IMG/VR virus record: IMGVR_UViG_3300032007_000073 | Span: 8,402-72,401 of that record | DNA length: 64,000 bases | Strand: one strand, 5' to 3' | DNA from: a virus | Taxonomy: Duplodnaviria; Caudoviricetes | Part shown: positions 2,134 to 44,843 of the stretch, in pieces | How the letters are laid out: every line of letters begins with the position of its first letter | Position numbering within the stretch: position 1 is the stretch's first letter | Notes under the pieces: model-generated | What the model was told of the DNA's origin: nothing | Database searches by the model: none | The model's input: only the letters and a program-made list of their open reading frames with translations | Position numbers and translations under genes: made by a program

Positions 2134-2141
2134 GTTATAAC

Positions 2142-5570: not shown

Positions 5571-5593
5571 TTTAACGGCAAAGGAGTTTTGAA

Positions 5594-14853: not shown

Positions 14854-14877
14854 AATATTTTTTAAGGGGGTAGTGTA

Positions 14878-26269: not shown

Positions 26270-27001
26270 CTATAACATATCAAAATCGAACTCGCTATTT
26301 TTCTCTATTTGAGCATCCGATATTCTTTGTTTTGATATATTATAATACTCTTCAAAAATTTCTATTCCGTAAAACTTTCTTCCATACTTTATACAACTTA
26401 TTGCCGTAGTTCCTAATCCAGAAAACGGGTCCAAAACGAAGTCTCCTTTGAATGTAAGATTAGCAATTATTATATCGCTTAATTTCTGAGGCATCATCGC
26501 ACCGTGAATTTCCGAATAAGGATTGTTCGAATTAACAAAACATTCAATAACATTTCGAAAACACTTTATCCCTTCACCTGAAGTTTTTATTTGATAGTTC
26601 TTATCTTTTTTAATCAACAAAATGTGTTCGTAATTATTGTTGATTACATTCGGAGTTGCACTCGGTTGTCCGTTTACTTTGTACCAAATCATATCATCGT
26701 GTATTCGGTCTGCATAATGTCCTATTAATCTGTAAACATTTTCTCTATTCTCTTTTATTGCTCCTACATTATAAATTACATACTTTTTACTTACTCTTAA
26801 ACATTCGTCTATAACCTTTATTTGCCAATCTAACCAATCTTTTTTAAGTATCGTTTCGGAATTAATATATTTTTTATGCGAATTATTATCTTTCTTTGCA
26901 TTAAACCCGTACGGCGGCGAAGTAAAAGTTATATCAAATGTATCGTCAGAGATTGTCTTTAAATGATTTAAGCAATCGTCATTGATAATTTGATTCTCCA
27001 T
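26270..27001 (-). CDS. DNA methyltransferase, N4/N6 beta class (SPPY)
   Basis: 'DITFTSPPY' motif IV, 'HGAMMP', 'VLDPFSGLGTTA' motif I. Confidence 0.9.
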   Translation of the reverse strand: MENQIINDDCLNHLKTISDDTFDITFTSPPYGFNAKKDNNSHKKYINSETILKKDWLDWQIKVIDECLRVSKKYVIYNVGAIKENRENVYRLIGHYADRIHDDMIWYKVNGQPSATPNVINNNYEHILLIKKDKNYQIKTSGEGIKCFRNVIECFVNSNNPYSEIHGAMMPQKLSDIIIANLTFKGDFVLDPFSGLGTTAISCIKYGRKFYGIEIFEEYYNISKQRISDAQIEKNSEFDFDML

Positions 27002-27017
27002 AAATCCTCCAAATAAA

Positions 27018-27149
27018 GATAGCGGTGTTGCTTACGGAATTGAAAAGTTCCCACCGCTATCCTTAACTCGCAAATAAAAAGGGGGTAGCCTTTCTTCTTA
27101 TGCGAGATTATATTTAGTTAGTTAATTGATTGTTATTTACCGTAAGCAT
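27018..27149 (-). ncRNA. Candidate structured 5' leader RNA of the SPPY methyltransferase
   Basis: Two hairpins (27067-72/27101-06; 10-bp 27018-27/27052-61) and a 9-nt 5'-end-to-loop complement; see findings. Confidence 0.45.
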
Positions 27150-30965: not shown

Positions 30966-31721
30966 TTAAATATTTTTTATTGACAATGTGTTTTCAAATG
31001 TTAATCTTCCGTTTTTCTTTTTGTAATTATATATATCTGTGAATAATTGCAAATATTCCTCCGATGTAGTACAAAGATATAGTTTTGCTTGATATTTCAT
31101 AACATTATCGATTAAAAAGTCCAAATCAAAATCTTTTATTTTTCTCAAGCATTTAACACATCTTACAATTTTATTTACAATGTTTCTTTTTCCTTTTATT
31201 ATGTAACAAAGCCTCATCATTTTTTGAACAAAATCGACACTCTCTTCAATGTCTTTTTCAAAAACCACTCTTCCTTCTTTAAAAACCTCATTTTTGTATC
31301 CACTTGCATTAAACAAACATTCTATCAATCCGTTTATACTAACACCAGTTTTGTTTTTGATTTCTAATAATCTTTGATAGTTTTTATTGCCTTGAGATGC
31401 CCAATATTGAGCATAATCTTCCAATCCCCATTTTTCTTGATATGTATTATAAATAGGAATGTTTTTTGTGTTATCCTTAAAAACGACATAATGAACAGGT
31501 ATCCCCATTCTCTTACAAGCCTCTAATCTGTGTTGCCCATCGATAATGTTAAATTCCTTATCGACAATTATCGGCTTTGACATTGACATCCCACCAGTCA
31601 ACTCAAAACTCTTCATTAATCTCTCTACGTTTTTGTTTTTTATACTTCTGTTTAATCCCACTCTTTTAAATTTTTCATAATTTTTTGTACTCGTGATAAT
31701 AGTTTTTGTGATTTTTTCCAT
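30966..31721 (-). CDS. ParB/Srx N-terminal-domain protein
   Basis: 'KPIIVDKEFNIIDGQHRLEACK.MGIPV' (GxxR motif). Confidence 0.75.
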   Translation of the reverse strand: MEKITKTIITSTKNYEKFKRVGLNRSIKNKNVERLMKSFELTGGMSMSKPIIVDKEFNIIDGQHRLEACKRMGIPVHYVVFKDNTKNIPIYNTYQEKWGLEDYAQYWASQGNKNYQRLLEIKNKTGVSINGLIECLFNASGYKNEVFKEGRVVFEKDIEESVDFVQKMMRLCYIIKGKRNIVNKIVRCVKCLRKIKDFDLDFLIDNVMKYQAKLYLCTTSEEYLQLFTDIYNYKKKNGRLTFENTLSIKNI

Positions 31722-31751
31722 TTTTTGCCCTCTCTTTTTAATTTTTATATG

Positions 31752-31780
31752 ATTATAACATATAATTTACATAAAGTCAA
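31752..31780 (-). promoter_or_regulatory. Strong sigma70 promoter TTGACT-N17-TATAAT (extended TG) for the ParB-like/RecT operon
   Basis: -35 at 31780-31775; -10 at 31757-31752. Confidence 0.75.
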
Positions 31781-31783
31781 TAT

Positions 31784-33490
31784 TTATTTTGACGGGCAGA
31801 AATATCCTTTTTTTCTTCTCTTGTTTCCAGACACATCTGCCTTGTCTTTTTTGAACTTCTTTAATTTGTTCTCTTTTCTTACTTTTGCGATTTGTTTCAT
31901 CGTAAAACTGCCGTATCTCATTTTCCCTCCTTGCCAAACAAAAAGTTTGGATTTTTATAAGTTTTTTTTATAAATTCCATATCCATTTTAATAATTTTAG
32001 CTAATCCAAGAGGTTTTATTGTTACTACCAAATCAAAATCTATTTTTCCAAAATCGTGGTATATTTGTTGTAAAATAAAAGGTCTGTTTTTAACCCAATG
32101 AAAAGCATCTATTATAAGTGTAGGTCTTTTCATAAATTTATCCTCCAATGTTTCTTGAATCTACTTAACGATTTAAAATACACCAAAGTTCTGCTCACAA
32201 AATCCCTAATTACACTCATCGATGTTTCCAATTTAAAATCGTGCAGAATTATACAGAAATTATCTTTTGCCAATATAAATCTGTATCCATTTTTAAACAA
32301 GCAACAGAAAATTTTAAAATCCCCAACTTGCCTAACAAACATTCTGTACGGAATACCATCTCCAAGTTCTTTGAACTTAGCAGGTTTTAGACATTCTTTT
32401 ACTATATCCATTTTATTCCTCCTGTGATAATAAAATTACTTCATTGTTTTGTAACTCTTTCAAAATATCCCCAATTTCTACAACTTCAATATCTTCTACC
32501 GTTTGCAGATATTTTATCGCAAGTTCTATGTTTGTAATTTCTTCTACCTCTGCATCGTTTCTTTTAACAAATCCCATATCAAGCAGTCTATCTTGGTATA
32601 AATACATCCATTTTTTGCCTTTGTCGTTTAATTTATCGTTAGCAAATCTAATAACTGCTTTTTCTGTTCCCAAAAACAAATCTTTTGTGTCTGTGTTTAT
32701 AAGTTTATATATATTTCCGTCTTTTTCTATCGCCTCAATACCATAAAAATCTTCTGCACAATAAAAACATTGATAAACATAGCCGTCTATATCACTTTTT
32801 GCCAATGGAGTTTTACAATGACGACATAAATGTTTTTCATCCAATGGATATAGTTTTACACTATACTTTTTAGTTATAGTTTCAATATCTATTTCGTGAA
32901 AATACTCTTTTATTTGACTCTCTGTCATCGGTGGCAATTCTCCACCGAATTGATTTGTGTATAATTCCAAAGTGTCTATATCTACCAAACAATATCTTGT
33001 TTCCATATTATACCTCCTTTATTCTCTTTCAAAGTTTTTCAACATCTCCAATATAGACAATCTTCTAACTAACAGATTGTAAAGTTTTCTTGTTTTTTCA
33101 AACAAAAGTCCATAATCGGCGGAGGATATATTATCTATTTCTTTTTTTGCATTTTTTATTTTGTTTTCAAGTGTTTCTTTTTTGTTTTTCAAATCATCTA
33201 TCTTTAATTTTATATTCATTTATTCACTCCGTTGTTATTTTTTTACAATTATTGTTTTCTTCCATTATTCCTTTTATAATCATCCAAGAATGAGAAATAT
33301 CAATTGCCATCGATAAAGAAAAAAATCTTATTCTATTGTGTGTTATTTGACATATCTCATAACGCCCTCTTCTAATAGATAAATATTCTTGTCCGTTATC
33401 CAAATAATGTTTTAGTATTACATATATTCCATTTTTTCTTTTTGGAAAAGCCAAAGATTTTTCTTTTAATTCTATCCAATTCATAGGCAT
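31784..33490 (-). CDS. Six small hypothetical genes (31784-31921, 31918-32148, 32130-32411, 32413-33006 with Zn finger, 33019-33219, 33224-33490)
   Basis: ORFs with RBSs; 32413-33006 has 'CRHC...CFYC'. Confidence 0.6.
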
Positions 33491-34353
33491 TATTCTCCCA
33501 TTTCCGATAATTTTCTATCAAAAGACAAAGAAAAAGCACTCTCTTGATATCCTTCAAAGCCTTTTTCTACCAAATCTGTCCTGAAACTATCATCCGTAAA
33601 ACCTTTATCAAATCTCTTTTTGATTTTATCGATAACCAAATCAGTATAAACTCTACAAACTTCAATATCTTTTTGTTCTACGGAACGAATTTCTATCCAG
33701 TTTTCCTCATCGGGTCTTGAAGATTGAATAATAAACACCATTTTTACGGGAGTTTGTCCATACAAAGACTCAATTGCTTTGCATTGCATCCCAACATCGT
33801 AAGTATAGCCACCTACATCGATACCTCTAATATTTTTTTCTATTGTTGCCGTAGTTTTGTACTCAATTAAAACAATCCCTTGTGGAGTATTTTTTACGGC
33901 ATCCAATTTTGCTTTTAAAACCAAACCTCTATCTTCCCAAATCACAGGTTTTTCAATTGAAATCCCACTTAAAATAGTTTTTACCAAGTCATAACTCAAT
34001 AAAGTTTTTATCCTTAAATACCAATTATCGAACTCACTTTGTAAAACCAAGTCTTTTCCACTTTTTTCATTGGCTATCGCATCTTGGAAGGCTTTTGTTT
34101 TACGAGAACTAAAACCTTTGCCATCAGGAATAATTTTGTACTCATCGTGAAATTTGTTAGGTTCTAACAATAAAGTATGAGCCAATCTCCCATTTACCAA
34201 AGCATCTGTTACTCCCTCATCAATCCTATTAGGATTGAAAAGGCAGTTTTTCCAAAACCACATCGGATTTTGGTCATTCCATTTTTTAATTTGACTTTTG
34301 CTTAATCCTTTGTAAGCAAAATAGTCTTTGTCGCTTAGTCTTTGCATAAGCAT
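33490..34353 (-). CDS. RecE/exonuclease VIII-like PD-(D/E)XK nuclease (DUF3799-type)
   Basis: 'GLSKSQIK', 'GRLAHTLLLEP', 'KAKLDAV...IEYKTT', 'Y..GMQ'; functional partner of RecT. Confidence 0.8.
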   Translation of the reverse strand: MLMQRLSDKDYFAYKGLSKSQIKKWNDQNPMWFWKNCLFNPNRIDEGVTDALVNGRLAHTLLLEPNKFHDEYKIIPDGKGFSSRKTKAFQDAIANEKSGKDLVLQSEFDNWYLRIKTLLSYDLVKTILSGISIEKPVIWEDRGLVLKAKLDAVKNTPQGIVLIEYKTTATIEKNIRGIDVGGYTYDVGMQCKAIESLYGQTPVKMVFIIQSSRPDEENWIEIRSVEQKDIEVCRVYTDLVIDKIKKRFDKGFTDDSFRTDLVEKGFEGYQESAFSLSFDRKLSEMGE

Positions 34354-34620
34354 CTACCTCCTTTTTAAATTTCTTTTTGTTAATTTTCTTGCAATCTTTA
34401 CACATCTACGAATTTGCTCTCTTGTTTGCTCTCTATTTAACAAATAAGTATCTTTTGTTACTATCAGTTTTTCTTTGTAGAAAAATCTAATCTCAAGCAT
34501 AAACACAATTTTTATTGTTATAATATCGTTTATAAGATACATATATTTTCCGCATTTGCGATATTCAAAACCTTTAAATCTTTTTAAATAGTTTTCCATA
34601 ATATCATATTCATATCTCAT
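34354..34620 (-). CDS. Hypothetical protein
   Basis: 88 aa ORF with an AGGAGG RBS. Confidence 0.55.
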   Translation of the reverse strand: MRYEYDIMENYLKRFKGFEYRKCGKYMYLINDIITIKIVFMLEIRFFYKEKLIVTKDTYLLNREQTREQIRRCVKIARKLTKRNLKRR

Positions 34621-34680
34621 ATAGTCCTCCTTTTAATAGATTTTAATGAATAGCTCCATATAGGAGCTATCCCTTAAAAG

Positions 34681-35382
34681 CTACCTCCAATTTAAAATAT
34701 TTTTCTGCGGTTTATATGTTTGTGTTATTTTATCCCATTCCATCCAAGCTTGTTGTTCGTTATCCCAATATCCACCATACCAATATGAATAAGATACTGG
34801 CTCAGGTTTTTGATAACTTGTATTACTATACCATATTCCGTTATCCCAAACACCTGCTTTTTCGTTTATGATTTTATATTTTCCGTTTTTGTTTAACAAA
34901 ATCATTTTATTTGACGAACCAATATATCCTTCAATTAATTGAAACAGAACATCGTTTTTTCCTTCTATCATATCATTGAGGCAACTTTTTGCTATTCTTT
35001 GAAGGATTTTTTTATTAAACATCATAGTGTCGCTATCGTTAGAAGTTTTAGAAACTCCGTAATCGTGTCTCAAAATTCCGTTATGACAAAACACTATCTC
35101 GTCATTTACAACAAACGGATGAGTACATCTTTTAGATATTAGCCCGTGAGTTGCTATTCTAAAATGTACCAAAAACGGCTTATCTATATACTTGTCTCTT
35201 GTTTCAATAAAATTATCAATATTTTTGATAATTTTCTTTTTATTTGATTCTTTTACCATTTTTATTTGATTGTTTTCATCAAAATAAGCATATCCAAATC
35301 CGTCCCTGTTCGTTTCGTTACATCTAATTAAAGTATCTCTATCTAAAACTTTGCCTTCTGGCAATAATATTGCTATGCACAT
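34681..35382 (-). CDS. Class II glutamine amidotransferase (Ntn hydrolase)
   Basis: N-terminal M-C; 'NRDGFG', 'HFRIATHG', 'THPF', 'HNGIL', 'SDT'. Confidence 0.9.
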   Translation of the reverse strand: MCIAILLPEGKVLDRDTLIRCNETNRDGFGYAYFDENNQIKMVKESNKKKIIKNIDNFIETRDKYIDKPFLVHFRIATHGLISKRCTHPFVVNDEIVFCHNGILRHDYGVSKTSNDSDTMMFNKKILQRIAKSCLNDMIEGKNDVLFQLIEGYIGSSNKMILLNKNGKYKIINEKAGVWDNGIWYSNTSYQKPEPVSYSYWYGGYWDNEQQAWMEWDKITQTYKPQKNILNWR

Positions 35383-37070
35383 ATTGTTTTTACCTCCTTT
35401 AAATATTTTACCTTCATTTCATAGAATTTTATCAATTGTTTTAATATCTTACTATGAGCATTTTGTTTTAAATACTCAAACATCTCTTTTGCATTTAAAG
35501 ACTCTTCGTTTTCTTTATCTCTTGAATATTCAACTAACAATTTACAGAATTGAATATGAGCAAATATAACATCGGTTCTCAAAGTTCCGTTAAACATTCT
35601 TATTTCTATCGTTTTGGCGTGTTTAAAGTTTACGATGTGATATTTATCTCCAAAAACACCGGCATTATTCAATCCATTAATGAAATAATTTTTATCTCTT
35701 GCTATACCATAATCAAACTGAGCATAATGATTAAAACTTCTACAAGCAAAATGTTCGGTTAAATATTTATCCAAATAAAAACATCTTGCAAATCTTGCAA
35801 TATGATAATTATCCTTAAAACCTGCTCTACTTAAATGAATATGGAGACCTGTTGTTGTTGCTTCATCACTGTATCCACCCCCATTAATTACACTTTGAAA
35901 AGTTCTTTTGAAATCGCATAGTGCCAAATACCATCTTTTATACGTCATTGCATAAGATACGACTTCAAATCCATTACTTATACTACTATCTGATTTTAAA
36001 TAAACAAATTGTTTTAACGATTTATTTATCTTTTTTGCACATTCTTCTATACTACTATCCATATCTACTTCCATTTCTATTTCTGCGCCATAGAACATTT
36101 TTTCGTTTACATCGTCTGTTCTTGCTCTTAAAAATCTCTCAATTTTTGTTGAATAAGGATTAATTCTTGTCAATTTACACTCAGAGCAAAGAGTATCCTC
36201 TTCATCTTCTCTAACATAATAACAATCGCATTTATAACAACATCTAATTGTTTCTGGAAGTTCCGAATTAATAACATTCATCTCATCTTTATACAAATTC
36301 AATTCTTTTTGAACTGCTTTTTTATCTTTCTCGCAAGAAAATTTTAATCTAACTCTAAATCCCATCTTGCCAGTCAAATCACATTTTCCGTAATTTTTTT
36401 CTATCAAACAATCATCGCAATAAGTTCCATCGTTTACTTCTGTAATATTAAATGTCGGTTGTTGATAACAAATTACTTCCGTCCTTCCACAACAATTACA
36501 ATATCTCCTATATTTTTTATTAAAATTTGTCTCCCACCACTCTATCACTTTATCTTCAAACTCAGGTCTATAAAACCATCCTGAGAAATCCTCAATCGTA
36601 CAATTCGGCATAGCTCTCTTTGTCTTTTTAACAAAATCATAAACTATCGTATCTTCTAATCCTGTAATTCTTATACAATAAAACAATCTTCCAAAAATTT
36701 TCTCCATTTCTGCATAATCTACATCAAATTTTTTGATTGTTTTAAGGTATTTTCTCATCTTAGAAACCCTTATCAAAAACGGCAAGTTTCTACTTCTTCT
36801 ACAATCGCTCAATCTACTAATGCCGTACACAGGAGAAAAACTATCCTTTTCCTGCTCCACATTGAACGATTTTAAAGACCTTGCAGAAAAATTAATACTT
36901 GAGATAACCGAATCTCCTTCTCTTTTATCCCATCTTGTGTTTTTAATCCATCCTTCTACATTCAAATCTGCCTCTTGCAGACTTCTTGACAACTTGTACG
37001 CCTCATCTTTTGCGATTTCATAATAAGAATCGCACGTCTTTGACCTATGGAGTTTGTTCATTATATCCAT
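35373..37070 (-). CDS. Amidoligase (COOH-NH2 ligase type 2) with N-terminal Cys-rich zinc ribbons
   Basis: 'YGAEIEME', 'KSDSSI..GFEVVS', 'TGLHIH', 'TIEIRMFNGT'; adjacent to the GATase. Confidence 0.85.
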   Translation of the reverse strand: MDIMNKLHRSKTCDSYYEIAKDEAYKLSRSLQEADLNVEGWIKNTRWDKREGDSVISSINFSARSLKSFNVEQEKDSFSPVYGISRLSDCRRSRNLPFLIRVSKMRKYLKTIKKFDVDYAEMEKIFGRLFYCIRITGLEDTIVYDFVKKTKRAMPNCTIEDFSGWFYRPEFEDKVIEWWETNFNKKYRRYCNCCGRTEVICYQQPTFNITEVNDGTYCDDCLIEKNYGKCDLTGKMGFRVRLKFSCEKDKKAVQKELNLYKDEMNVINSELPETIRCCYKCDCYYVREDEEDTLCSECKLTRINPYSTKIERFLRARTDDVNEKMFYGAEIEMEVDMDSSIEECAKKINKSLKQFVYLKSDSSISNGFEVVSYAMTYKRWYLALCDFKRTFQSVINGGGYSDEATTTGLHIHLSRAGFKDNYHIARFARCFYLDKYLTEHFACRSFNHYAQFDYGIARDKNYFINGLNNAGVFGDKYHIVNFKHAKTIEIRMFNGTLRTDVIFAHIQFCKLLVEYSRDKENEESLNAKEMFEYLKQNAHSKILKQLIKFYEMKVKYLKEVKTICA

Positions 37071-37102
37071 ATAGCCCTCCTTGTTTTAAGTCCAGTGGAC
37101 TG

Positions 37103-38972
37103 TTTAGTACTCAATAAGCCCCTGATATCTCTATCAGGGATATACAAAATACTAAAATCCAAAACTTTTAATATATTTTTTAGCATTGCATAAATTTTTA
37201 CAAACTTCATTTGCAAGAGCTTTAGTTATAAACATCGTTTGTTTGGAATGAATAGACGTATCGTAATATCTCTTTTTTTCTTTTTTATCGTAAAATTCCA
37301 ATTGAATTTCATATAGTATCTCAACTCCTCCCTTTTTTAAATTTATACAAAAATCCACCACTTTACCTTCAACTACTTCAAAAGCATCTCCAATAAGAGC
37401 CCTTCTAACACAAAACACTCTTTGTCCGATTTCATAATCGGTTTTAATTGTGATTTCCATAATATCCTCCTTTATAATGTTTAATTAGACCCCGATATCT
37501 CTATCGGGGCTAAACAAAACATTACAACTCAGCAAGTTTTTCAACTAATTTCTCTCTCTCCAAAGTGAGTCTGTCAACTATCACTTTCCTTGCCTTCTCA
37601 GTTGTTTTTGGATAAGATTTTAAAGTAACACCTATCGAATCAAACGTAAGATTCTTGGCAGACTCAATCATCTTATCCTTCCTATCAATTTTTTCCAACA
37701 ACGTCAATACTTCATTTCTGTTAGATAACTTCATAGCTATCCCCCTTTTATTTTATTTCTGCCTTAAAGGCAGTTTTTTATAAAAATATCCTTTTACATA
37801 TTTCATATCAAAATAACTTGCTATAGCAAAACAATCTGCCAATGTAGGATGATGAGATATCGTATTGATTATCTCCCATCGTTCATAATGGTTGCCTTTG
37901 AAATCAACTACTTCGGTCATTATCGCATCCCATTCTTGATTTAACACTTTTACTGCTTGTTCAAATAAAAGCATATTAAACCTCCTTTAGTGTTTAATAA
38001 GGTCCTGATATCGCTATCAGGACTATACAAAGCACTAATATTTAATATTATCACAGGCTTGTTTGAATTGTTCTTCTGTTATACAATCGGGCAAATACTC
38101 TTTAATATCTTTTATTTCATAAAATCCGCTGCAACAGTCTATTGTCTCTCCATAGTTATCATAAACTTCAAATCCGTAAAAGTCTCCATCTGAGCATTTT
38201 TGCCAAACTTTCAAAAACTTTTTAAACACTTCGTATCCAAAATGAACATCTTTACTATGATGTTTTATTGCAATAATTCCAGCAATTCCCGAATCCCAAC
38301 GGTCTCTTAAAGCTCCTGAATATTCATATAGCCAAATCCCGCTATGTATCGTTGCCTCACAATAAAACAACTGATATCCATTTGCTAATAACTCTTCTTT
38401 GTCAAAGTAATCTGCGTTTTCTACTTCATAATTTTTGCATAAGGTATAATCTTTCAAACAATTTAAAATCTTAACATCGTCAATTTCATCTCTATCAAAC
38501 ACAAGATTAATTTCATCTTCATAATCTACAAAATCATACCTGAAAATTCTCAAATAATACTTTCTTTCTACCAAAGAATTAGCAAAGTTTAAAATCTTAT
38601 CATACTGCTCCGGACTTAAATCTTTAATAGTTAAATCCATAATAATCCTCCTTTTTAAAGTCCATAAGGACTGTTTTAATATTTAATCCTATCTCCAATA
38701 AAGAGACAGGACAAAACATTAAATTTTGTTTTCAATTATAAATCCCATAATATTATTGAGTATTTCTAATTTCCCATTATTTCTTGCCGTATCTCTCAAA
38801 TACTCCAAATCCCCAATAATTTCCTTTTTTTTCTTCTCTTCTATCATATCTGACTCTTTTCTTGTCTCTTCTCCAAGTTTTAACACAAATTCTTTTAGTG
38901 TCATATTAAACCTCCTTTATTAGTATTTAATCAAACTCCCTGATTATCTCAGGGAGCTAAACAAAATACTAA
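37103..38972 (-). repeat. Dispersed intergenic hairpin repeat, five copies (37103-37156, 37475-37524, 37987-38038, 38675-38723, 38920-38972); divergent relative at 34641-34679
   Basis: Each copy is a ~50-nt imperfect inverted repeat starting at the upstream stop codon and ending just upstream of an AGGAGG RBS. Three share the core CC(C/T)GATAG(A/C)GATATC(A/G)GG. Confidence 0.85.
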
Positions 38973-39279
38973 AAATGTTTCATATTACCTCCTAACAAAC
39001 TGTTATAATCCCATCGTTATCCCATTCTACTATACATTTCCATAATTCAACTTTATAGCCATACTCTTCCAATACTTTTATCGCATCTTCGGCCGTATTT
39101 ACCACTTTATTGCTTTTTTCTTGTTTCAAAACCTGATTTGCAAACTTTGGAAGAGCTTTATCCGTAATATAGCTCTCCAAATCTTCAAAAGTCATTTTTA
39201 CCTTGTAAATATGGACTGCAAACTCACATTTTTTTTCTAATCCGTGTGTTATTTCTTTTGCTATTTCATTGATTCCCAT
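37152..39279 (-). CDS. Array of small early-type genes (37152-37460, 37522-37734, 37753-37974, 38035-38640, 38719-38904, 38992-39279) plus mini-ORF MKHF (38969-38983)
   Basis: Most have a GGAGG RBS; products unknown. 38035-38640 carries 'HSGIWL...DRWDSG..GII'. Confidence 0.7.
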
Positions 39280-39680
39280 AATATCCTCCTTAGTATTTAT
39301 TTAAAATCCCACTCAGAACCTTAAACAAATCCTAATCGCCACTCTACAAGACCTGAAGCCCAAAATAGCCGAAGGACTTATTCAAATCCCCCGGCTACCA
39401 TAGCAAGAAAATGATAAAAAACTTGCTATACCGTTTTTATACTACCATTTTTGTCTATTATTCTTTCTATCTCATCCATTTTCTACCCCCTTAGTATATA
39501 AATATAAGTGCATATAATAATATACAAGCACAAACAAATATCAAAACAAACAAACCAAACATCATTATCCATAATACACAATAATATATCTTATCCAAAT
39601 TCATATCTACCCCCTTTTAAGTAAATCTTTTAAATTTTTAGCATAATAAACAGCTATAAAATACCGTACAAACAACAAAA

Positions 39681-39710
39681 ACAAGCTAAATTTTTAATTT
39701 TTTAGCTTGT
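39681..39710 (-). terminator. Intrinsic terminator
   Basis: ACAAGCTAAA/TTTAGCTTGT 10-bp stem followed on the minus strand by TTTTGTTGTTT. Confidence 0.65.
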
Positions 39711-39763
39711 CTTTAATATATATACCTATTTTATAAAAAGTCTTTTAAAAGTCAATTATAAAG

Positions 39764-40538
39764 CTATAAATTGATTTTATTGTTTTGTATATTTTCATAT
39801 TTTTGTATTAATTCATACAAGTATTTTTCTAAATAATACTTATACCAATTTATTTTTGAATGTAATTCAACTAAATTATAAACTTTATCAATTTTGTTAA
39901 AATAAATTGTATTATTTTTATTTTGTAAATTAATTATTTTTTTTGCTTTTTTTTGTTGTTTAATTCTGTTTATTATTGATTTTTCAATAATTAATTCTTT
40001 TTTTAATTTGATAAAATCATTTATATTATTTATCATTTTTTTACACTCTCTTTTTTTATTTTTTTAATAACTCTTTAAAAATTGCCTTTGCTATTTGTTT
40101 TTTTTATTTATTTTCTAATTCAATTTTTATTGCTAAATTCAACAATTTTTCATATTGTAAAAAGTTGTTTGTGTTTATTGTTATAATTTTGAAATTGTCG
40201 TTTTTATCTTTTTTGCAAAATAATTGTTGTAATTTTTCAAAATCTGTTTTGTTTTCAAAATTATTTTTATTTAACAAGTAAAAATATTTATTAGCTTTTC
40301 TTTTTTCTACAAAATTAATATTGTTTAATTGTTCCATAACATTCATTAATTTTGTATAATTTTCATTTTTTTTGTCGGTATTTTCATAACATATAACAAC
40401 TCTAATTAAAAAATTAGCTTCATTTATTTTACTTGTATTTGTTTGTATTTCCTTTGCTATTGTTTCAAAATCTGTTAAAATTTCATTAATTTTTATCATT
40501 TTTTTGTACCTCTTTTTTAAAGATTTTAGCAAAGGCAA
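39764..40538 (-). CDS. Two extremely AT-rich hypothetical genes (39764-40036; 40104-~40499/40538)
   Basis: N/K/I/L-rich ORFs in a visibly AT-richer island. Confidence 0.5.
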
Positions 40539-40691
40539 TTATTAAAAAGTTATTATTTTTATAGTACATTCATAATCAAAAACAATTGTTGACTTTAAGT
40601 AAAGTTGCTTTGTTTTTAGAATGTTTTTTATGTCAAATAGCTTTTGCTTTAAAGGTCGGTTCTTTAAAGACTGTTTATTTTTTCTATTATT

Positions 40692-40847
40692 AGTATAATA
40701 TATATTTAATTATATATCAAGTATTTTAATTAGATTTTACATTTTTTTTGCAATTTGTATTATATATAGTATTATATTATATTTGTATTATAAATATTCA
40801 ATTTTATATACAAAATACTTGACTTTTTAGTTAAAATTTGCTATAAA
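40692..40847. promoter_or_regulatory. Divergent sigma70 promoters: minus TTGATA-N17-TATACT (40720-40692); plus TTGACT-N17-TATAAA with TG (40819-40847)
   Basis: Spacings counted directly. Confidence 0.6.
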
Positions 40848-41053
40848 AAAAGCATTCTTTTTTTTGGCAAGGAGGTAAGCACTTCCACCAATTTTCTCAC
40901 AAAAAACCGATATTTTGCTTGGCTACCAATGTTATAATTTGATTTATAGGTATTTATAGGCGATATTTTGAGATATTTTGGGTTTTATGAATAAAAGGTC
41001 AACTTTGCTATAAAAAAGAGTAAATAGGTGGTATAGGGATAAAAAATTTTGAG

Positions 41054-41090
41054 AAAAAAAAATAATATATGTCTGAATACTCAGCATATT
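41054..41090 (-). terminator. Intrinsic terminator of the candidate sRNA and of the terminase operon
   Basis: AUAUG-CUGA-GUAU-UCAG-A-CAUAU stem followed by a run of U. Confidence 0.65.
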
Positions 41091-41213
41091 TTAAGATTGG
41101 TTAGAGATGACATATCTTCCGTTCGGCTTAGCATATAGCCAGTACTTGCAACATTAGATACATTACTACGGTAGGAGTTATCGGCTTACCATAAAGGCAG
41201 TCTGCAAGTTCCT
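41054..41213 (-). ncRNA. Candidate ~160-nt stand-alone small RNA
   Basis: Own TTGACA-N17-TACAAT promoter, no credible ORF, internal stems, ends in a hairpin plus U9. Confidence 0.55.
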
Positions 41214-41219
41214 GAGATA

Positions 41220-41248
41220 ATTGTAATATATTTGGAATCGGATGTCAA
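41220..41248 (-). promoter_or_regulatory. Sigma70 promoter TTGACA-N17-TACAAT
   Basis: -35 at 41248-41243; -10 at 41225-41220. Confidence 0.75.
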
Positions 41249-41250
41249 GA

Positions 41251-41637
41251 TTAAAGAGTACCGTTTTCGATAGCTTCAAAGACAATAGGAAGCACCTTAT
41301 CTTTAGTTCTTAGGTTTAAAGGGAACGTTTTTTTAAATCCTTTAGGTCTTTTAACGAGATAAACGGAAGCACGTCCGTCAAGAGTCCTTCTGTCAGGAAG
41401 TATAGACAGGATAAAGTTCACAAGGTCGTCTTGCTCTTTTTTGTACCCTCTGACACAACAAACACAATAATCGTCCTTGTTGAACTTTGGTTGAGGCTTT
41501 TTGAGGTACTCTTCCAAGATAGGCTTAAGATGTTCCGGTAATTTGTAAGTAGTTCTTGCGGCATAATACTCTCTTGGTCTGCGTTTGAAAGTATTTTTTG
41601 GCATATAGTAAGGGTCTTTGTACGGAGATACAGGCAT
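41251..41637 (-). CDS. Hypothetical basic protein downstream of TerL
   Basis: 128 aa; start overlaps the TerL stop. Confidence 0.6.
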   Translation of the reverse strand: MPVSPYKDPYYMPKNTFKRRPREYYAARTTYKLPEHLKPILEEYLKKPQPKFNKDDYCVCCVRGYKKEQDDLVNFILSILPDRRTLDGRASVYLVKRPKGFKKTFPLNLRTKDKVLPIVFEAIENGTL

Positions 41638-43091
41638 TATATAACCTCCAATAAACTTGGGATATGTTTGTAAATGAGTTTTGCACCATCTACGATACAG
41701 TCAACCATATCATCGTGCCTACCATCAGGGAACTCGATACATTCAGAGATACAATCTTGAATTATTGATTGGTTCATATCGCAATTAAATGTTACTTTAT
41801 AATTATACACATCGGGAAGAACCACGTTTGCTCTTATTACTTTATCTCTCTTACGGTCTTTATAGAACTCTTTTAATACTCCTTCCGATTGAGTGATTAT
41901 CCCTTCCTGTGCAAAAAATTGGTTTAAAAAGATTCCGTGTCCTTTCGGTTCAATATAACATCCGATAAAATCTTCTCTGATAGACCACAACTTCATAAAA
42001 GGTAAGAAATATTCCACTATCTTGTCCGAATTTACTTTCGCCCTCTTTATGTCTAACACATAGAACCGCCCGTTAGCCTTTCCTACCGCCATAAAGACTG
42101 TCCAATCGTTTCTTTCTGAACCTCTGTATGCAGTATCTGCTATTACGGCAGTAAAATCAAAATATTCAGGTAATGCATCTATTTGGAACATATCTTTCGT
42201 AAACAACGAGCCTCCTGTTGCTCTTGGCTCTTGCTGGTACTGCGAATAATATAACTCAGGTGTCCTTATTTTAAGTTCTTCTAACTTTTTTATCGGAAAC
42301 TTCTCTTCCCAAAACGATACCTTCTTCTCTTCATCATATGCTCTTACCGTAACCACATCCCAATCATTTGTCTCGGCATCCATTACATATTGAGCTAAAT
42401 CGTTTGTTGATAATCTCTGCATTATAAGAATTATCGGAGTATGACTCGTTCTTAATCTTGTCTTGAGCTTGTCCGTATAATTCCTGATACATTCGTTTAA
42501 CATTACTTCAGAAGTCGCATTTGATACGTCCAATGGGTCATCGATAATTAAATCTCCATTGTATCCTGGTATTGACGGATTACCTGCATCAATACCTGTC
42601 AATGCACTTCCTATCGGAGCAGCCGTCATTCCACTTCTTGTTCCTGCATCCTTGAAATTGTATTGTGTACTTGATTTTTGGTCTAACTCGTGTCCAAACA
42701 AGTCTTGCCAAAATATCGATTCGATTATCTCTAACGTTTCTCTTGATAACTTCGTTATGAGCAAATCGGAATGTGATACATATAAATGCTTAACACTCGG
42801 ATTTCTTGCAAATGTCCAAGTAATGAATAACTCCACTATTAACGATTTTCCCGCTCCTACAGGTATGTTTATAAGTAAGTTCGGTTTATCGTTCTTTTGG
42901 TCTGCTATATCCTGTAACTTTTGGATAATCTTATCGTGAAAAGGCTTGAATGTGAACTCAGTCCTGTTTATCAGGAAGAACATCAGGGTTATGTACTCCC
43001 TCAGACTCCCCAGACACGTCAACCTCAACAACTCTTTCGTCTCCGGGTCTTTCATCGCCTCTTCCAATTGGGATATTTTGTCTAAGTCCAT
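41637..43091 (-). CDS. terL: Terminase large subunit
   Basis: Walker A 'NIPVGAGKS', Walker B 'LIIDDPL', 'IILIMQRL', 'SQYQQEP', RNase H-like 'IADTAY...DWTV' and 'HDDMVD'. Confidence 0.93.
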   Translation of the reverse strand: MDLDKISQLEEAMKDPETKELLRLTCLGSLREYITLMFFLINRTEFTFKPFHDKIIQKLQDIADQKNDKPNLLINIPVGAGKSLIVELFITWTFARNPSVKHLYVSHSDLLITKLSRETLEIIESIFWQDLFGHELDQKSSTQYNFKDAGTRSGMTAAPIGSALTGIDAGNPSIPGYNGDLIIDDPLDVSNATSEVMLNECIRNYTDKLKTRLRTSHTPIILIMQRLSTNDLAQYVMDAETNDWDVVTVRAYDEEKKVSFWEEKFPIKKLEELKIRTPELYYSQYQQEPRATGGSLFTKDMFQIDALPEYFDFTAVIADTAYRGSERNDWTVFMAVGKANGRFYVLDIKRAKVNSDKIVEYFLPFMKLWSIREDFIGCYIEPKGHGIFLNQFFAQEGIITQSEGVLKEFYKDRKRDKVIRANVVLPDVYNYKVTFNCDMNQSIIQDCISECIEFPDGRHDDMVDCIVDGAKLIYKHIPSLLEVI

Positions 43092-43686
43092 CTGTTATAC
43101 TTGCTCTCCTTAATCCATCCAAGATTTCTTTTACTTTGTTTACTTTATCTTTATCTATATTTACATCTATAATCTTCTGTTGTATTCCTGTACTTATAAT
43201 CTCGTTGGCAGGTTTCTCTCCTACCGTATCTCTTATTATCTCAAGTCCTCTTAACTGATTCGCAGTTATGTCTCCTGATAATACCCCGTTAACTATCATC
43301 TCTGCCAATAACATACGTTTGGACTTAACTTTCTCTTGTCCGTCTTTTACATCTACTATTCCGGGTGTATCTAAAATTTCATTAAAACAATCTTTAAATA
43401 TTTCTTTTACCATTTTCTTGGTTACCAAAGGCAACTTCTGTGCCCTGTATATCCCTTTTCTTAAATCATCATCCTCTTTTATATAATCCCAAATTAATTG
43501 GTCTATTTCAAAAATCTTAAATCCTACTTGCCCGTCTTTAAGCTCTTTTATCTTCTGATATTTCGGTTTATACTTGGCTTTTATTTTCTCTGCAAACTCT
43601 CTTACATCCTCTTTTATTGCCTCGTATAACACTTTTTCCGACATATAATCTTTGGTAACTTCGCCCTTACCTCTAAATACTGTCAT
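42958..43686 (-). CDS. Terminase small subunit (putative)
   Basis: Immediately upstream of TerL; 'LEIIRDTVGEKP' motif; its C-terminus overlaps TerL by 134 nt. Confidence 0.6.
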   Translation of the reverse strand: MTVFRGKGEVTKDYMSEKVLYEAIKEDVREFAEKIKAKYKPKYQKIKELKDGQVGFKIFEIDQLIWDYIKEDDDLRKGIYRAQKLPLVTKKMVKEIFKDCFNEILDTPGIVDVKDGQEKVKSKRMLLAEMIVNGVLSGDITANQLRGLEIIRDTVGEKPANEIISTGIQQKIIDVNIDKDKVNKVKEILDGLRRASITDGLRQNIPIGRGDERPGDERVVEVDVSGESEGVHNPDVLPDKQD

Positions 43687-44027
43687 AATAAGTATAAGTG
43701 CCTATCAAACATTTCTAAAATATCTATAACTACATTTGCTTCCGTGTCTTTTACCGACAATGCAAGTAACGTAAACTCTCTCTTTGCCATAGACAAATAC
43801 TCTTTTATCTCGGTATCAGGAAGTTCTACTCCCTTGAACTTCGCATAATCTACCTGCGTAATCCCTCTTGACCCCATATATACCTCAACAAATCTGTCTA
43901 ACAACGGGTCTATATCTCCCATCAATCTCTCAAAAAGAATATGGTTCGCATACTCTTTCGCCGTGTTCCAATGCAAAAACTGAAGTTTATCTTTATATGT
44001 CTTTAATATGGCTATGTATTTCTCCAT
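43683..44027 (-). CDS. Ferritin/Dps-like four-helix protein (DUF5856-like)
   Basis: 'LQFLHWNT...NH..FE.L...ID..LD.FVE.YMG' metal-ligand pattern. Confidence 0.7.
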   Translation of the reverse strand: MEKYIAILKTYKDKLQFLHWNTAKEYANHILFERLMGDIDPLLDRFVEVYMGSRGITQVDYAKFKGVELPDTEIKEYLSMAKREFTLLALSVKDTEANVVIDILEMFDRHLYLL

Positions 44028-44209
44028 TTTTCCCCCTCGTGCTTCTTTATAAATGTATCTATATTGTTAATCGTTAAACAGACGGCTTTGGCTTTCCTTA
44101 ACCCCATTGTCAATAACGGATATCTCTTGTTATCGCCTGTCGCCTCATCGTCATATAACGAAATTATTGGTCTGCCTTTAAATGTGCTTTCTTCTATCCT
44201 GATTTTCAT
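44012..44209 (-). CDS. Small conserved phage hypothetical protein
   Basis: 'FKGRPIISL...MGLRKAKAV'. Confidence 0.6.
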   Translation of the reverse strand: MKIRIEESTFKGRPIISLYDDEATGDNKRYPLLTMGLRKAKAVCLTINNIDTFIKKHEGEKWRNT

Positions 44210-44226
44210 TTCCCCTCCGTAGTATA

Positions 44227-44297
44227 TATATAATACATTAAGAAAAAAATGTCAAGCAAAAAAAAGACTTGACAAAATAAAAAATATAATGTATTAT
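44227..44297. promoter_or_regulatory. Back-to-back sigma70 promoters: minus TTGACA-N17-TATATA (44255-44227); plus TTGACA-N17-TATTAT (44269-44297)
   Basis: Inverted TGTCAAG...CTTGACA pair at the strand switch between the terminase and head operons. Confidence 0.7.
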
Positions 44298-44303
44298 TCA
44301 TAA

Positions 44304-44465
44304 TGTAGTTGAGATAATAAGTTTATCCGAAAAACTTTTTATCTCGTTGAAAATTAAAACATAGACAATTAAAGACATTTTGTAGTGTTCCTGTCTGTTA
44401 TTATATTTTGTCTATGGATATAAGAAACAGGTCGGAACAGGAATACTACAAAGTGTCTTTTTTTT
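44304..44465 (+). ncRNA. Candidate ~160-nt leader/attenuator RNA upstream of the head genes
   Basis: Hairpin 44311-44345; 24-bp stem 44371-94/44437-60 followed by a U-tract; loop complement at 44360-68. Confidence 0.5.
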
Positions 44466-44843
44466 GTTTAACCGTTTTTAGAGTCTTTTTTTTTAAAAAA
44501 AACCAAAAGCCGAATGATAGCAACAAGAATCTGCAAAAGTTTTATGTTTTGTAATTGCGATTACTTCTGACAACAGTGATAAGTATGAAAAATACGGAAG
44601 CAAATCCTACAAAATATGAAATTTCCTGTCATAATCAGAAAAGGTATCTGTTTTGTAAACCTTTTAAAGAGTTGCGTAGAAATACGGATAAGAAAGACAT
44701 AAACAGATAAAAGATTTGATATCTTCTAAATGTTCGGGTTGTTTTAAAAGACAACTCTTATCCCCCCCCCTATTAAAAAAAGTACTTGACATTTTTTAAA
44801 ATATTTGCTATTAGTTGGATATAAAAAGATAGAGATAGGGGAG

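What the first reader, a model, noticed from the sequence alone, without database searches (positions are those of the whole stretch)
37070..39300. Early-gene cassette array punctuated by a conserved stop-hairpin-RBS element
Seen: five ~50-nt imperfect hairpins (37103-56, 37475-524, 37987-38038, 38675-723, 38920-72; relative at 34641-79; half-copy at ~39290). On the coding strand each reads approximately TA(G/A)TRTTTTGTWTAG-inner stem-TTATTAAAYAYTA-AAGGAGG. The upstream stop codon forms the start of the 5' arm. Inner stems differ in sequence but keep pairing (CCCTGAT/ATCAGGG, CCCCGAT/ATCGGGG, GTCCTGAT/ATCAGGAC, CTCCCTGA/TCAGGGAG), i.e. covariation within one genome. Two copies add a second AGTCC-loop-GGACT hairpin. 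Knowledge: T7 early mRNA is cut by RNase III at similar internal-loop hairpins; repeated intergenic elements drive gene shuffling in T4-like phages; integron attC sites are structure-defined cassette borders. Inference: a processing signal and/or recombination scaffold that lets small host-takeover genes be swapped as units.
Basis: partly seen in the sequence, partly recalled or inferred. Interest (0 to 1): 0.8.

Follow-up and report, generated by a model that had tools for sequence, protein, structure and literature searches.

The report
Hairpin connectors between phage early genes
An uncultured rumen phage and one relative join their small genes with copies of a single folded RNA hairpin that starts at a stop codon and ends at the next ribosome-binding site; it is most likely a cut-and-protect signal like those of phage T7, and the genes between the hairpins differ from phage to phage.

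Summary
They are the only strong copies in the 72.4-kb record. They fold far better than shuffles. 99% of pair cells are paired, and 11 of 20 pairs changed on both sides.

A divergent copy (34634-34685) and a degenerate first copy (39291-39338) belong to the same design. An independent 48-kb metagenome contig (L007, terminase 80% identical) carries five more copies on its gene strand. Only 1 of 9 cargo genes is shared. DNA similarity between the two arrays is limited to hairpin+RBS islands.

G.U pairs and folding energy strongly favour the sense strand, which points to RNA or sense-strand ssDNA rather than a duplex-DNA palindrome.

- No U-tract, promoter, integrase or phage RNase III was found.
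- Geometry matches the phage T7 early intergenic hairpins.
- There is no sequence homology to them.

Best reading: RNase III-type processing and stability hairpins whose DNA copies also serve as swap points for cassettes. Cleavage is not shown. This scan has noted similar hairpin arrays in other phages, so this is a new member of a known kind.

The parts
39291..39338 (-). c0: degenerate first copy of the hairpin, directly before the SD of the 95-aa gene
   Evidence: Fold 18 bp, -13.5 kcal/mol; z -1.83; CM R2 17.9 bits, E 0.74. The 3' arm plus RBS matches L007 e1 at 83% over 36 nt.
38992..39279 (-). Cargo gene, 95 aa, no family match; absent from variants in two other samples
   Evidence: Variant joints 38978->39513 (RNA-library runs X3/X4) and 38908->39290 (X5).
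38969..38983 (-). Mini-ORF MKHF with its own AGGAGG; its TAG is the first triplet of c1
38921..38971 (-). c1 hairpin: 21 bp, 23 rungs, loop GAUAA; SD starts 4 nt after it
   Evidence: (67.2 bits).
38719..38904 (-). Cargo gene, 61 aa, no family match
38677..38721 (-). c2 hairpin: 19 bp, uninterrupted upper stem, loop UUAUU
   Evidence: (48.8 bits).
38659..38672 (-). Second mini-hairpin (AGUCC-loop-GGACU) between c2 and the SD of the 201-aa gene
38035..38640 (-). Cargo gene, 201 aa; phrog_6186 (unknown function); 11 homologues at 48-94% identity in public data
37988..38037 (-). c3 hairpin: 19 bp, GNRA loop GCGA; SD starts directly after it
   Evidence: (71.6 bits).
37753..37974 (-). Cargo gene, 73 aa; the only cargo gene shared with L007 (43% identity to its 71-aa ORF)
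37522..37734 (-). Cargo gene, 70 aa; follows the 73-aa gene with no hairpin between them
37475..37524 (-). c4 hairpin: 20 bp, GNRA loop GAGA; best-scoring copy
   Evidence: (75.4 bits).
37152..37460 (-). Cargo gene, 102 aa, no family match
37105..37154 (-). c5 hairpin: 20 bp, GNRA loop GAGA
   Evidence: (70.3 bits).
37089..37101 (-). Second mini-hairpin between c5 and the SD of the 565-aa gene
   Evidence: A contig of RNA-library run X3 ends at 37089.
35373..37070 (-). Cargo gene, 565 aa, amidoligase-like
   Evidence: PF12224 at 21.4 bits, just under its cut-off of 22; phrog_16683 at 3e-27.
34681..35382 (-). Cargo gene, 233 aa, class-II glutamine amidotransferase-like
   Evidence: PF13230 at 36.3 bits.
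34634..34685 (-). c6: divergent copy of the same stop-hairpin-SD design; counterpart of L007 e4
   Evidence: Fold 21 bp, z -4.24; 88.7% identity over 53 nt to L007 17836-17888, between unrelated genes.
34354..34620 (-). 88-aa gene after c6, no family match
39361..39430 (-). Two strong hairpins just upstream of c0, the second followed by UUUU (terminator-like). L007 has a G+C-rich hairpin in the same position before e1.
   Evidence: (-30.5 kcal/mol).

Best explanation
The element is an RNA structure on the sense strand of a polycistronic message.

**Anatomy.** Each copy is an imperfect helix of 18-23 rungs, about two helical turns. It starts with the stop codon of the upstream gene and ends 0-4 nt before a strong AAGGAGG. 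In three copies a small second hairpin sits before the AAGGAGG instead.

**Most likely mechanism.** It is a processing and stability signal of the phage T7 / SP82 type. The host's double-strand-specific RNase III would bind the two-turn helix. The conserved small mismatches (U.U next to G.U, and a 2x2 loop) would limit cutting. That would leave the upstream message with a protective 3' hairpin and the downstream message starting at its ribosome-binding site. Each cassette would then be expressed independently of its neighbours.

**Secondary effect.** The same ~60-bp stop-hairpin-SD unit flanks every cassette, so its DNA copies give related phages short homologies at which cassettes are exchanged, lost or gained.

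**Shown:** the fold, covariation, sense-strand bias, position relative to stop codon and SD, conservation across two phages, and different cargo.

**Inferred:** cleavage by RNase III, stabilisation, and recombination at the units.
For: **Structure and covariation.**
- 99% of pair cells are paired and 11 of 20 pairs changed on both sides; 0 of 500 shuffles reach this.
- The third base of the stop codon covaries with its partner (pair 3-49: GC 5, AU 2).

**Strand bias.**
- Over 11 elements the summed MFE is -231.5 kcal/mol on the sense strand and -157.0 on the antisense strand.
- 9 of 11 elements are more stable on the sense strand.
- G.U pairs number 32 of 213 on the sense strand and 5 of 179 on the antisense strand.
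- The covariance model scores 49-75 bits on the sense strand and 15-38 bits on the antisense strand.

**Geometry over 12 elements.**
- 16-21 bp and 18-23 rungs.
- Loops of 3-5 nt, GNRA in 5 of 12.
- The SD begins 1-5 nt after the helix in 9 of 12.

[quoted passage not shown] 'Classic' B. subtilis RNase III sites are stable stem-loops with small internal bulges (PMC4838370, passages).

**Comparison with T7.** The T7 early intergenic regions fold into ~50-nt hairpins with an 8-bp lower stem, an internal loop, a 9-10-bp upper stem and a 4-5-nt loop. The stop codons of genes 0.4 and 0.7 lie at the 5' foot.

**Conservation.** Five further copies lie on the gene strand of L007. c6 and e4 are 88.7% identical over 53 nt, while the neighbouring conserved exonuclease gene is 73% identical.

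**RNA-library contigs (one sample, weak).**
- 8 of the 15 listed contig ends between 34000 and 39400 fall within 7 nt of, or inside, an element.
- Contigs from DNA runs cross c4 and c5.
- Contig depth steps from 185 (37531-38885) to 57 (31000-37089) (my own count on its table 8, which lists only the longest pieces).

**Cargo turnover.**
- 1 of 9 cargo genes is shared with L007.
- DNA similarity is limited to hairpin+RBS islands.
- Variant joints lie next to c1 and c0.
Against: - No RNA end was mapped. The runs are kept only as contigs, and the tool warns that they cannot show ends and may contain DNA.
- The deepest RNA-library contig bridges c2 and c3 uncut.
- Contig breaks could instead be branch points between strain variants, or coverage dips at stable hairpins.
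- The host is unknown, so the presence and specificity of its RNase III are untested. The phage record encodes none.
- The most conserved part is the A-U-rich lower stem with an invariant U.U/G.U. RNase III is not known to need that, so it could point to a specific binding protein or to homogenisation by recombination.
- The internal loops are small and symmetric, unlike the large loops of the T7 hairpins.
- There is no sequence relationship to the T7 early region (filters off, 0 hits).
- Sense-strand bias alone cannot separate RNA from single-stranded DNA of the same strand.
Confidence: 0.5

Rival explanations
1. Uncleaved insulator/stabiliser hairpins. The same RNA structure acts without endonucleolytic cutting. 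It would block 3'-to-5' exonucleases and keep each ribosome-binding site in a constant structural context, as REP elements do inside bacterial operons (REP role recalled, not read here).
For: - All the structural evidence listed for the best explanation applies equally.
- An RNA-library contig at the highest depth (185) runs straight through c2 and c3.
- A bulge-helix-bulge motif can let RNase III bind without cutting (PMC1540722, passage).
Against: - The helices are consistently about two turns long (18-23 rungs). That is longer than an exonuclease barrier needs and matches the RNase III length requirement.
- Listed RNA-library contig ends cluster at the hairpin feet (8 of 15).
Confidence: 0.2
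2. Binding site for a specific phage or host protein, such as a translational repressor or activator or an antiterminator. The protein would recognise the invariant lower stem (U.U next to G.U) and the AUA-GNRA-UAU cap.
For: - U9.U43 and G10.U42 are kept in 7 of 7 strongly matching copies from two phages, while neighbouring pairs change.
- 5 of 12 loops are GNRA on an A-U-closed stem.
- Copies within one genome resemble each other more than copies across genomes.
Against: - The divergent members (c2, c6, e1, e4, e5) lack some or all of these motifs but keep the position and the helix length.
- No candidate binding protein was identified; 6 of the 9 cargo proteins have no family match.
- Sequence conservation could be shared ancestry or gene conversion.
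Confidence: 0.12
3. Primarily a DNA-level recombination site, PeSL-like or attC-like. The hairpins exist because they mediate cassette exchange, by homology or as folded single strands, and any RNA role is incidental.
For: - Cargo differs between the two phages while the units are kept.
- c6 and e4 are 88.7% identical between unrelated flanking genes.
- Variants lacking the 95-aa unit were seen in two other samples, with joints next to c1 and c0.
- A mini-ORF scar sits before c1.
- A recombination-type exonuclease gene lies just downstream.
- PeSLs show that repeated intergenic motifs drive shuffling in T4-type phages (PMC2839356, abstract and section 13).
Against: - Plain homologous recombination needs sequence identity, not compensatory pairing. 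Here pairing is conserved through double changes, and G.U pairs are tolerated on one strand only.
- There is no tyrosine or serine recombinase in the record.
- There is no promoter or terminator part as in PeSLs.
- The joints come from contigs, one of them at depth 3.2.
Confidence: 0.1
4. Transcription terminators or attenuators that grade expression along the operon.
For: - The hairpins are stable and G+C-rich at the top.
- Contig depth in the RNA library falls about 3-fold between 37531-38885 and 31000-37089.
Against: - Only 0-3 T occur in the 10 nt after any of the 12 hairpins.
- None of the five main hairpins (c1-c5) is among the 4 terminator-like sites of the scan. The only site near them is an antisense (plus-strand) hit on the mini-hairpin after c2.
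- The antisense strand also has no T-run after them.
- An RNA-library contig reads through c2 and c3.
Confidence: 0.05

Closest known systems
RNase III processing signals between the early genes of phage T7, and the analogous sites in Bacillus phage SP82 early mRNA. Site names and the SP82 details are recalled. The SP82 paper was seen only as a reference in PMC4838370. T7 processing is stated in PMC6938266 (passage).
   Same: - Intercistronic position in a same-strand gene array.
- About 50 nt, with an 8-bp lower stem, helix imperfections, a 9-10-bp G+C-richer upper stem and a 4-5-nt loop.
- The upstream stop codon lies in the 5' foot.
- Several related copies occur per genome.
   Different: - No sequence or covariance-model similarity.
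- Small symmetric mismatches instead of the large internal loop.
- The lower stem, not the upper stem, is the conserved part.
- Cleavage is unproven here.
- The T7 record used does not annotate the sites. That the folded T7 hairpins are the RNase III sites is recalled.
PeSLs (promoter-early stem-loops) of T4-type phages (PMC2839356, abstract and section 13 read; PMC4122927, search listing only)
   Same: - Repeated intergenic motif running from the upstream stop codon to the downstream Shine-Dalgarno sequence.
- Contains a stem-loop.
- Concentrated among small unknown genes.
- Marks where gene content differs between related phages.
   Different: - PeSLs contain a sigma-70 promoter and a stem-loop that terminates transcription.
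- Here there is no promoter consensus in the hairpins and no U-tract.
- The helix is much longer, and it is selected on the RNA-sense strand.
Extended start-associated sequences (ESAS + SAS) of Cluster K mycobacteriophages (PMC3203893, passages)
   Same: - Imperfect inverted repeats with a short spacer immediately upstream of a conserved RBS-containing motif.
- One orientation, many copies per genome.
- Conserved across related phages.
- Function unknown but thought to be linked to translation.
   Different: - Different sequence and a high-GC host.
- Arms are 17 bp.
- ESAS copies track particular gene families, whereas here the same unit flanks unrelated genes.
Integron attC sites
   Same: A structure-defined imperfect palindrome at the 3' end of each promoterless, co-oriented cassette, with variable cargo.
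   Different: - No integrase in the record.
- The feet read TAGT...ACTA and do not carry the attC core (core consensus recalled).
- G.U-tolerant pairing on the mRNA-sense strand.
Correia repeat-enclosed elements of Neisseria (PMC2649163, abstract in the search listing)
   Same: Repeated inverted-repeat elements that are co-transcribed with neighbouring genes and can be bound or cleaved by RNase III.
   Different: Correia elements are larger mobile elements (size recalled) with promoter and IHF functions. No evidence of transposition was found here.

Membership tests
T7/SP82-type RNase III processing signal | Lies between cistrons of a co-oriented, co-transcribed gene array | tested here: met
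   All 7 window copies and 5 L007 copies lie between same-strand ORFs, from the stop codon to the SD. Co-transcription itself is inferred. One RNA-library contig spans c2 and c3.
T7/SP82-type RNase III processing signal | Irregular helix of about two turns with internal loops or bulges (PMC1540722, PMC4838370 passages) | tested here: met
   16-21 bp and 18-23 rungs in 12 of 12 elements, with 1x1 and 2x2 interruptions.
T7/SP82-type RNase III processing signal | Cut by RNase III in vivo or in vitro | not testable with these tools
   Only contigs of one RNA-library sample were available. 8 of 15 listed contig ends lie at or in elements, which is a weak hint only.
T7/SP82-type RNase III processing signal | Sequence or covariance-model relationship to the T7 sites | tested here: not met
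   Model R2 with filters off on T7 700-7000 gave 0 matches at E<=10. Rfam gave no family.
PeSL (T4-type phages) | Sigma-70 promoter (-35/-10) inside the motif | tested here: not met
   56 promoter-like sites against 62.9 +/- 7.1 in shuffles. No sense-strand site lies within c1-c5.
PeSL (T4-type phages) | Stem-loop works as a transcription terminator | tested here: not met
   0-3 T in the 10 nt after each hairpin. c1-c5 are not among the terminator-like sites. Read-through contig in the RNA library. Function itself was not assayed.
PeSL (T4-type phages) | Marks borders of insertions, deletions and replacements between related phages | tested here: met
Integron attC | Associated tyrosine recombinase (IntI) | tested here: not met
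   PF00589 gave 0 matches in the record, while the control rang in 14 of 14 genomes. PF00239 also gave none. Only 21 kb of L007 was held, so that contig was not fully checked.
Integron attC | Conserved core sites at both ends (consensus recalled) | tested here: not met
   The feet are TAGT/TAAT ... ACTA/ATTA in alignments A1 and A4.
Intrinsic terminator | G+C-rich hairpin followed by a U-tract | tested here: not met
Cluster K ESAS/SAS | 13-nt SAS consensus and 17-bp inverted repeats as given in PMC3203893 | tested here: not met
   By reading, the units carry AAGGAGG and unrelated arms. The layout is similar but the sequences are not related.
Known self-cleaving ribozymes or other Rfam families | Match to a curated covariance model | tested here: not met
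   0 matches at gathering scores over the window. At E<=1 over 34400-39600 there is only a U4 snRNA match of 23.6 bits against a gathering score of 46, rejected as chance.

The most novel reading that the evidence does not exclude
The stop-hairpin-SD unit may be a standard 'connector' of a recombinase-free cassette system. One RNA fold would both insulate or process each message and, as DNA, supply the homology arms by which rumen phages trade promoterless genes. Selection would then act on the connector rather than on the cargo, which would explain why c6/e4 is better conserved than the adjacent core gene. A bolder version is that the invariant U.U/G.U box and the GNRA cap are read by a dedicated phage factor rather than by host RNase III.
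Probability: 0.2. Interest if true: 0.65.

Novelty: new member of a known kind. Interest (0 to 1): 0.4.

Why it matters
If the hairpins are cut-and-protect signals, they show how an uncultured phage of a low-GC rumen host sets the dosage of many small genes from one transcript. They would also provide a compact, portable insulator (stop codon, hairpin and SD in about 65 nt).

The comparison with L007 shows that connectors can outlast their cargo. That makes them handy landmarks for finding the variable, possibly host-interaction, genes in metagenomic phage genomes.

The device itself is familiar from T7, SP82 and the T4 PeSLs, and similar arrays were noted elsewhere in this scan. The value is therefore incremental.

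Tried and rejected
**Searches for relatives that gave nothing**
- blastn of 35000-40000 against the phage records: no match.
- tblastn of the terminase: best hits under 30% identity, so there is no cultured relative.
- The search for related loci with the 565-aa protein: none.
- The search for related loci with the 201-aa family alignment A2: none in viral contigs or metagenome contigs.
- Exact-pattern scans of viral contigs for the hairpin: 0 and 0.
- A looser pattern gave 5 loci, each with a single hit in which only the fixed ends match and the interior does not pair. I rejected these as chance.
- Models R1 and R2 found nothing in L002-L006 or in L008-L013. L002, L003, L010 and L011 have terminase 66% identical; L004, L005, L008, L009, L012 and L013 are 77-92% identical but do not reach the array; L006 is 29% identical.
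- A fold scan of L002 downstream of its terminase shows no comparable array.

So the family was seen only in the window's phage, its strain variants and L007.

**Readings rejected**
- Terminator.
- Promoter cassette.
- Integron-like site.
- Phage-encoded RNase III.
- Known RNA family or ribozyme.
- CRISPR-repeat mimic: no Rfam hit, and the size is wrong.

**Cargo function**
- Pfam and PHROGs name only the amidoligase-like and amidotransferase-like pair and phrog_6186.
- The Atlas gives only 'hypothetical protein' clusters.

- Joints with a short side (20-25 letters) at 80% likeness were ignored as probable repeats or other organisms.
- Supplementary files of the papers were not opened. PeSL functional data (its Fig. 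S1) and the ESAS lists (Figs S3, S4) are there and could refine the comparison.

Full report
**Setting.** The window is bases 8402-72401 of a 72.4-kb IMG/VR virus record with 32% G+C. Sequencing runs that hold the stretch are bovine, goat and sheep gut metagenomes. The finding lies in a block of minus-strand genes. Upstream (higher coordinates) is a terminase operon, with the large subunit at 41637-43091 (phrog_38, 7e-73). Next come an A+T-rich spacer with promoter-like sites, then the array of small genes, then an amidoligase-like plus amidotransferase-like pair, and then a recombination-type exonuclease at 33490-34353. That the array is 'early' is inferred from this layout only. No cultured phage is close: terminase identity is under 30% and there is no DNA match.

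**Check of the observation.** Reading the minus strand and a motif-plus-fold scan of both strands of the whole record give exactly five sense-strand copies.

| Copy | Coordinates |
|---|---|
| c1 | 38921-38971 |
| c2 | 38677-38721 |
| c3 | 37988-38037 |
| c4 | 37475-37524 |
| c5 | 37105-37154 |

- Each folds into one long imperfect hairpin with z-scores of -4.2 to -6.1; 0 of 200 shuffles do as well.
- In a sliding fold scan of the record, c5, c2, c4 and c1 are the 4th, 5th, 6th and 8th most stable 70-mers.
- With the structure I read off the folds (8 bp, 1x1 mismatch, 3 bp, 2x2 loop, 9 bp, loop), 99.0% of 97 pair cells are standard pairs, against 83.2 +/- 2.7 in shuffles.
- 11 of 20 pairs change on both sides, and no shuffle of 500 reaches the observed values. 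Sliding the partners drops pairing to 35-44%.
- The stop codon of the upstream ORF is the first triplet of the 5' arm in all five. For c1 that ORF is a four-codon mini-ORF, MKHF, with its own AGGAGG.
- The two extra small hairpins are at 37089-37101 and 38659-38672.
- The 'relative' is a full hairpin at 34634-34685 (c6, z -4.24).
- The 'half-copy' is a weak, degenerate element at 39291-39338 (c0: 17.9 bits, E 0.74; z -1.83).

**RNA or DNA?** I folded 11 elements (c1-c6 and five from a relative, described below) on both strands.

| Measure | Sense strand | Antisense strand |
|---|---|---|
| Summed MFE (kcal/mol) | -231.5 | -157.0 |
| G.U pairs | 32 of 213 | 5 of 179 |

- 9 of 11 elements fold better on the sense strand; the exceptions are c3 and e4.
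- In the alignment, G10.U42 is a wobble in every strongly matching copy. It would be an A.C mismatch on the other strand.
- The covariance model R1 scores the five copies 48.8-75.4 bits on the sense strand and 15.4-38.3 bits on the antisense strand.

A duplex-DNA palindrome, such as an operator or cruciform, would be symmetric. The structure is therefore selected on the strand that is transcribed as message. This does not by itself exclude single-stranded DNA of that strand.

**What it is not.**
- *Terminator.* Only 0-3 T occur in the ten bases after any of 12 elements. None of c1-c5 is among the four terminator-like sites of the scan. The antisense flank is A-rich too.
- *Promoter cassette.* Promoter-like sites are no more frequent than in shuffles (56 against 62.9 +/- 7.1), and no sense-strand site lies inside c1-c5.
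- *Integron.* There is no tyrosine or serine recombinase in the record, with positive controls working.
- *Phage-encoded nuclease.* The phage encodes no RNase III.
- *Known RNA family.* Rfam has no matching family. The only hit at E<=1 is a chance U4 match below half its gathering score.

**A relative with the same hairpins and different genes.** Terminase-based searches found relatives at 66-92% identity. One of them, L007, is a 48.4-kb metagenome contig with 80% terminase identity that reaches into the corresponding region. Model R1, built from the window alone, finds hits there, all on the gene strand:

| Element | Coordinates | Score (bits) |
|---|---|---|
| e2 | 14866-14911 | 46.7 |
| e3 | 15648-15692 | 44.3 |
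| e5 | 18270-18315 | 22.6 |
| e1 | 13983-14023 | 20.6 |

- A fifth element, e4 (17830-17876), scored only 15.6 bits on the antisense strand with R1 and 14.7 bits (E 4.5) on the gene strand with R2. I count it on the strength of its match to c6, described below.
- Fold z-scores for the five run from -4.65 to -7.88.
- e3, e4 and e5 again begin with the upstream stop codon.
- e3 is followed by the same kind of second mini-hairpin as c2 and c5.
- e2 and e5 carry GNRA loops on an AUA/UAU stem like c3-c5.
- The seven strongest copies from both phages keep 99.2% pairing, with 11 of 20 pairs doubly changed. This includes the pair formed by the third base of the stop codon (GC 5, AU 2). That alignment is fitted to the model, so it leans towards the structure.
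- In e2 and e3, pair 11-41 is C-G where the window copies have U-A.

Between the shared anchors (terminase operon and exonuclease), only 1 of the 9 cargo genes I list has a homologue in the L007 array: the 73-aa gene against the 71-aa gene, 43% identity. One L007 cargo gene has a weak match (E 3e-4) to a window gene outside the array. L007's cargo includes a MoxR-type AAA ATPase plus a DUF7192 protein. They sit in the slot, after a hairpin plus mini-hairpin, where the window has the amidoligase and amidotransferase pair.

At the DNA level the two ~7.9-kb arrays share seven short islands. Three of them are hairpin-plus-RBS units. The c6/e4 unit is 88.7% identical over 53 nt between unrelated genes, more than the 73% of the conserved exonuclease gene next to it. 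The more distant relatives (66% terminase identity) have no copy. Pattern scans of IMG/VR found no further carrier.

**Strain-level variation and RNA-library contigs (one call, contigs only).** Two metatranscriptome runs from one bovine sample (X3, X4) hold 84% and 56% of the sampled words. When they were laid on 31000-44500, the following emerged:

- A joined form in which 38979-39512 (c0, the 95-aa gene and the hairpins upstream) is replaced by 34 letters is the majority there: depth 120.6 in X3 and 22.7 in X4. Its border lies 7 nt upstream of c1.
- A goat-gut DNA run (X5) has a contig joining 38908 to 39290 through 14 letters. The 95-aa gene plus c1 is missing, and c0 then sits before the 61-aa gene. 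Its depth is only 3.2.
- Of the 15 ends of listed RNA-library pieces between 34000 and 39400, 8 lie within 7 nt of, or inside, an element: 37089, 37531, 38665, 38915, 39284, 39286, 39312 and 34688.
- DNA-run contigs cross c5 (X5) and c4 (X6).
- One RNA-library contig at depth 185 covers 37531-38885 and so bridges c2 and c3. The next one (31000-37089) has depth 57.

The tool warns that contigs cannot show RNA ends or levels, that DNA may be present in such libraries, and that only the longest pieces are listed. The breaks may equally be branch points between cassette variants. I therefore take this as a weak hint of processing. It is somewhat better evidence that units are gained and lost at their borders and that the hairpins do not stop transcription.

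**Comparison with known systems.**
- *RNase III substrate features.* E. coli RNase III substrates typically have two helical turns. Internal loops or bulges can restrict cutting to one strand and leave a protective 3' hairpin (PMC1540722, passages). B. subtilis RNase III cuts 'relatively stable stem-loops with small internal bulges' and is known to cut phage SP82 RNA (PMC4838370, passages). T7 makes polycistronic transcripts that RNase III processes at specific sites (PMC6938266, passage).
- *T7 geometry.* I folded the T7 early intergenic regions. They give ~50-nt hairpins with an 8-bp lower stem, an internal loop, a 9-10-bp upper stem and a 4-5-nt loop. The stop codons of genes 0.4 and 0.7 lie at the 5' foot. 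This is the same plan as here, apart from a larger internal loop. The record does not annotate the sites, so their identity as RNase III sites is recalled. Model R2 finds nothing in that T7 region, so the resemblance is one of design, not descent.
- *PeSLs.* PeSLs of T4-type phages share the stop-to-SD span and the link with gene shuffling, but they are promoter-plus-terminator cassettes (PMC2839356, abstract and section 13). Both of those features are absent here.
- *ESAS/SAS.* The ESAS/SAS motifs of Cluster K mycobacteriophages share the layout of an inverted repeat just upstream of the RBS, and their function is unknown (PMC3203893, passages).

**Verdict.** The element is real, is selected as a sense-strand structure, and is conserved across two phages whose cargo differs. 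I put 0.5 on RNase III-type processing and stabilising signals whose DNA copies secondarily serve as exchange points. The rivals are an uncut insulator or stabiliser (0.2), a specific protein site (0.12), a primary recombination site (0.1) and an attenuator (0.05). Earlier notes of this scan describe comparable hairpin arrays in several other phages. I did not test those, but together with T7, SP82 and the PeSLs they make this a new member of a known kind rather than a new kind.

Noticed in passing
window 38969-38983 (-): A four-codon mini-ORF (MKHF) with its own AGGAGG sits between the stop of the 95-aa gene and c1, and its TAG is the first triplet of c1. It may be the scar of a deleted cassette or a deliberate coupling device.
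   Followed up: partly
window 39426-39479 (-); L007 13678-13731 (+): A 17-aa peptide gene (MDEIERIIDKNGSIKTV against MDEILRIIEIDGKIKSL, 10 of 17 identical) is conserved just upstream of both arrays. In both phages a short hydrophobic ORF lies next to it, and strong hairpins precede the first element.
   Followed up: partly
window 41003-41050 (-); L007 11866-11912: A 48-nt island of 91.7% identity lies at the end of a promoter-to-terminator stretch without an ORF, downstream of the terminase operon. Earlier notes call this stretch a stand-alone RNA gene. A similar sequence appears in L002. There is no Rfam match.
   Followed up: no
window 35373-37070 and 34681-35382 (-); L007 15734-17487: The slot after a hairpin plus mini-hairpin holds an amidoligase-like plus class-II glutamine-amidotransferase-like pair in the window. 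In L007 it holds a MoxR-type AAA ATPase plus a DUF7192 protein.
   Followed up: partly
whole record: Relatives' contigs are 46.5-48.4 kb, whereas this record is 72.4 kb. That fits earlier notes that the record joins a ~47.5-kb myovirus to a piece of another phage. I did not test the junction.
   Followed up: no
window 27001-27070 (-): Another strong hairpin (-23.9 kcal/mol) ends just before a GGAGG. Earlier notes treat it as part of a structured leader before the replication genes.
   Followed up: no
window 37090-37530: In RNA-library run X3 the segment holding c4, the 102-aa gene and c5 lies between two contig ends (37089 and 37531). By my arithmetic on the bin depths, its depth is much lower than that of either flank. 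It may be a second variable unit in that sample.
   Followed up: no
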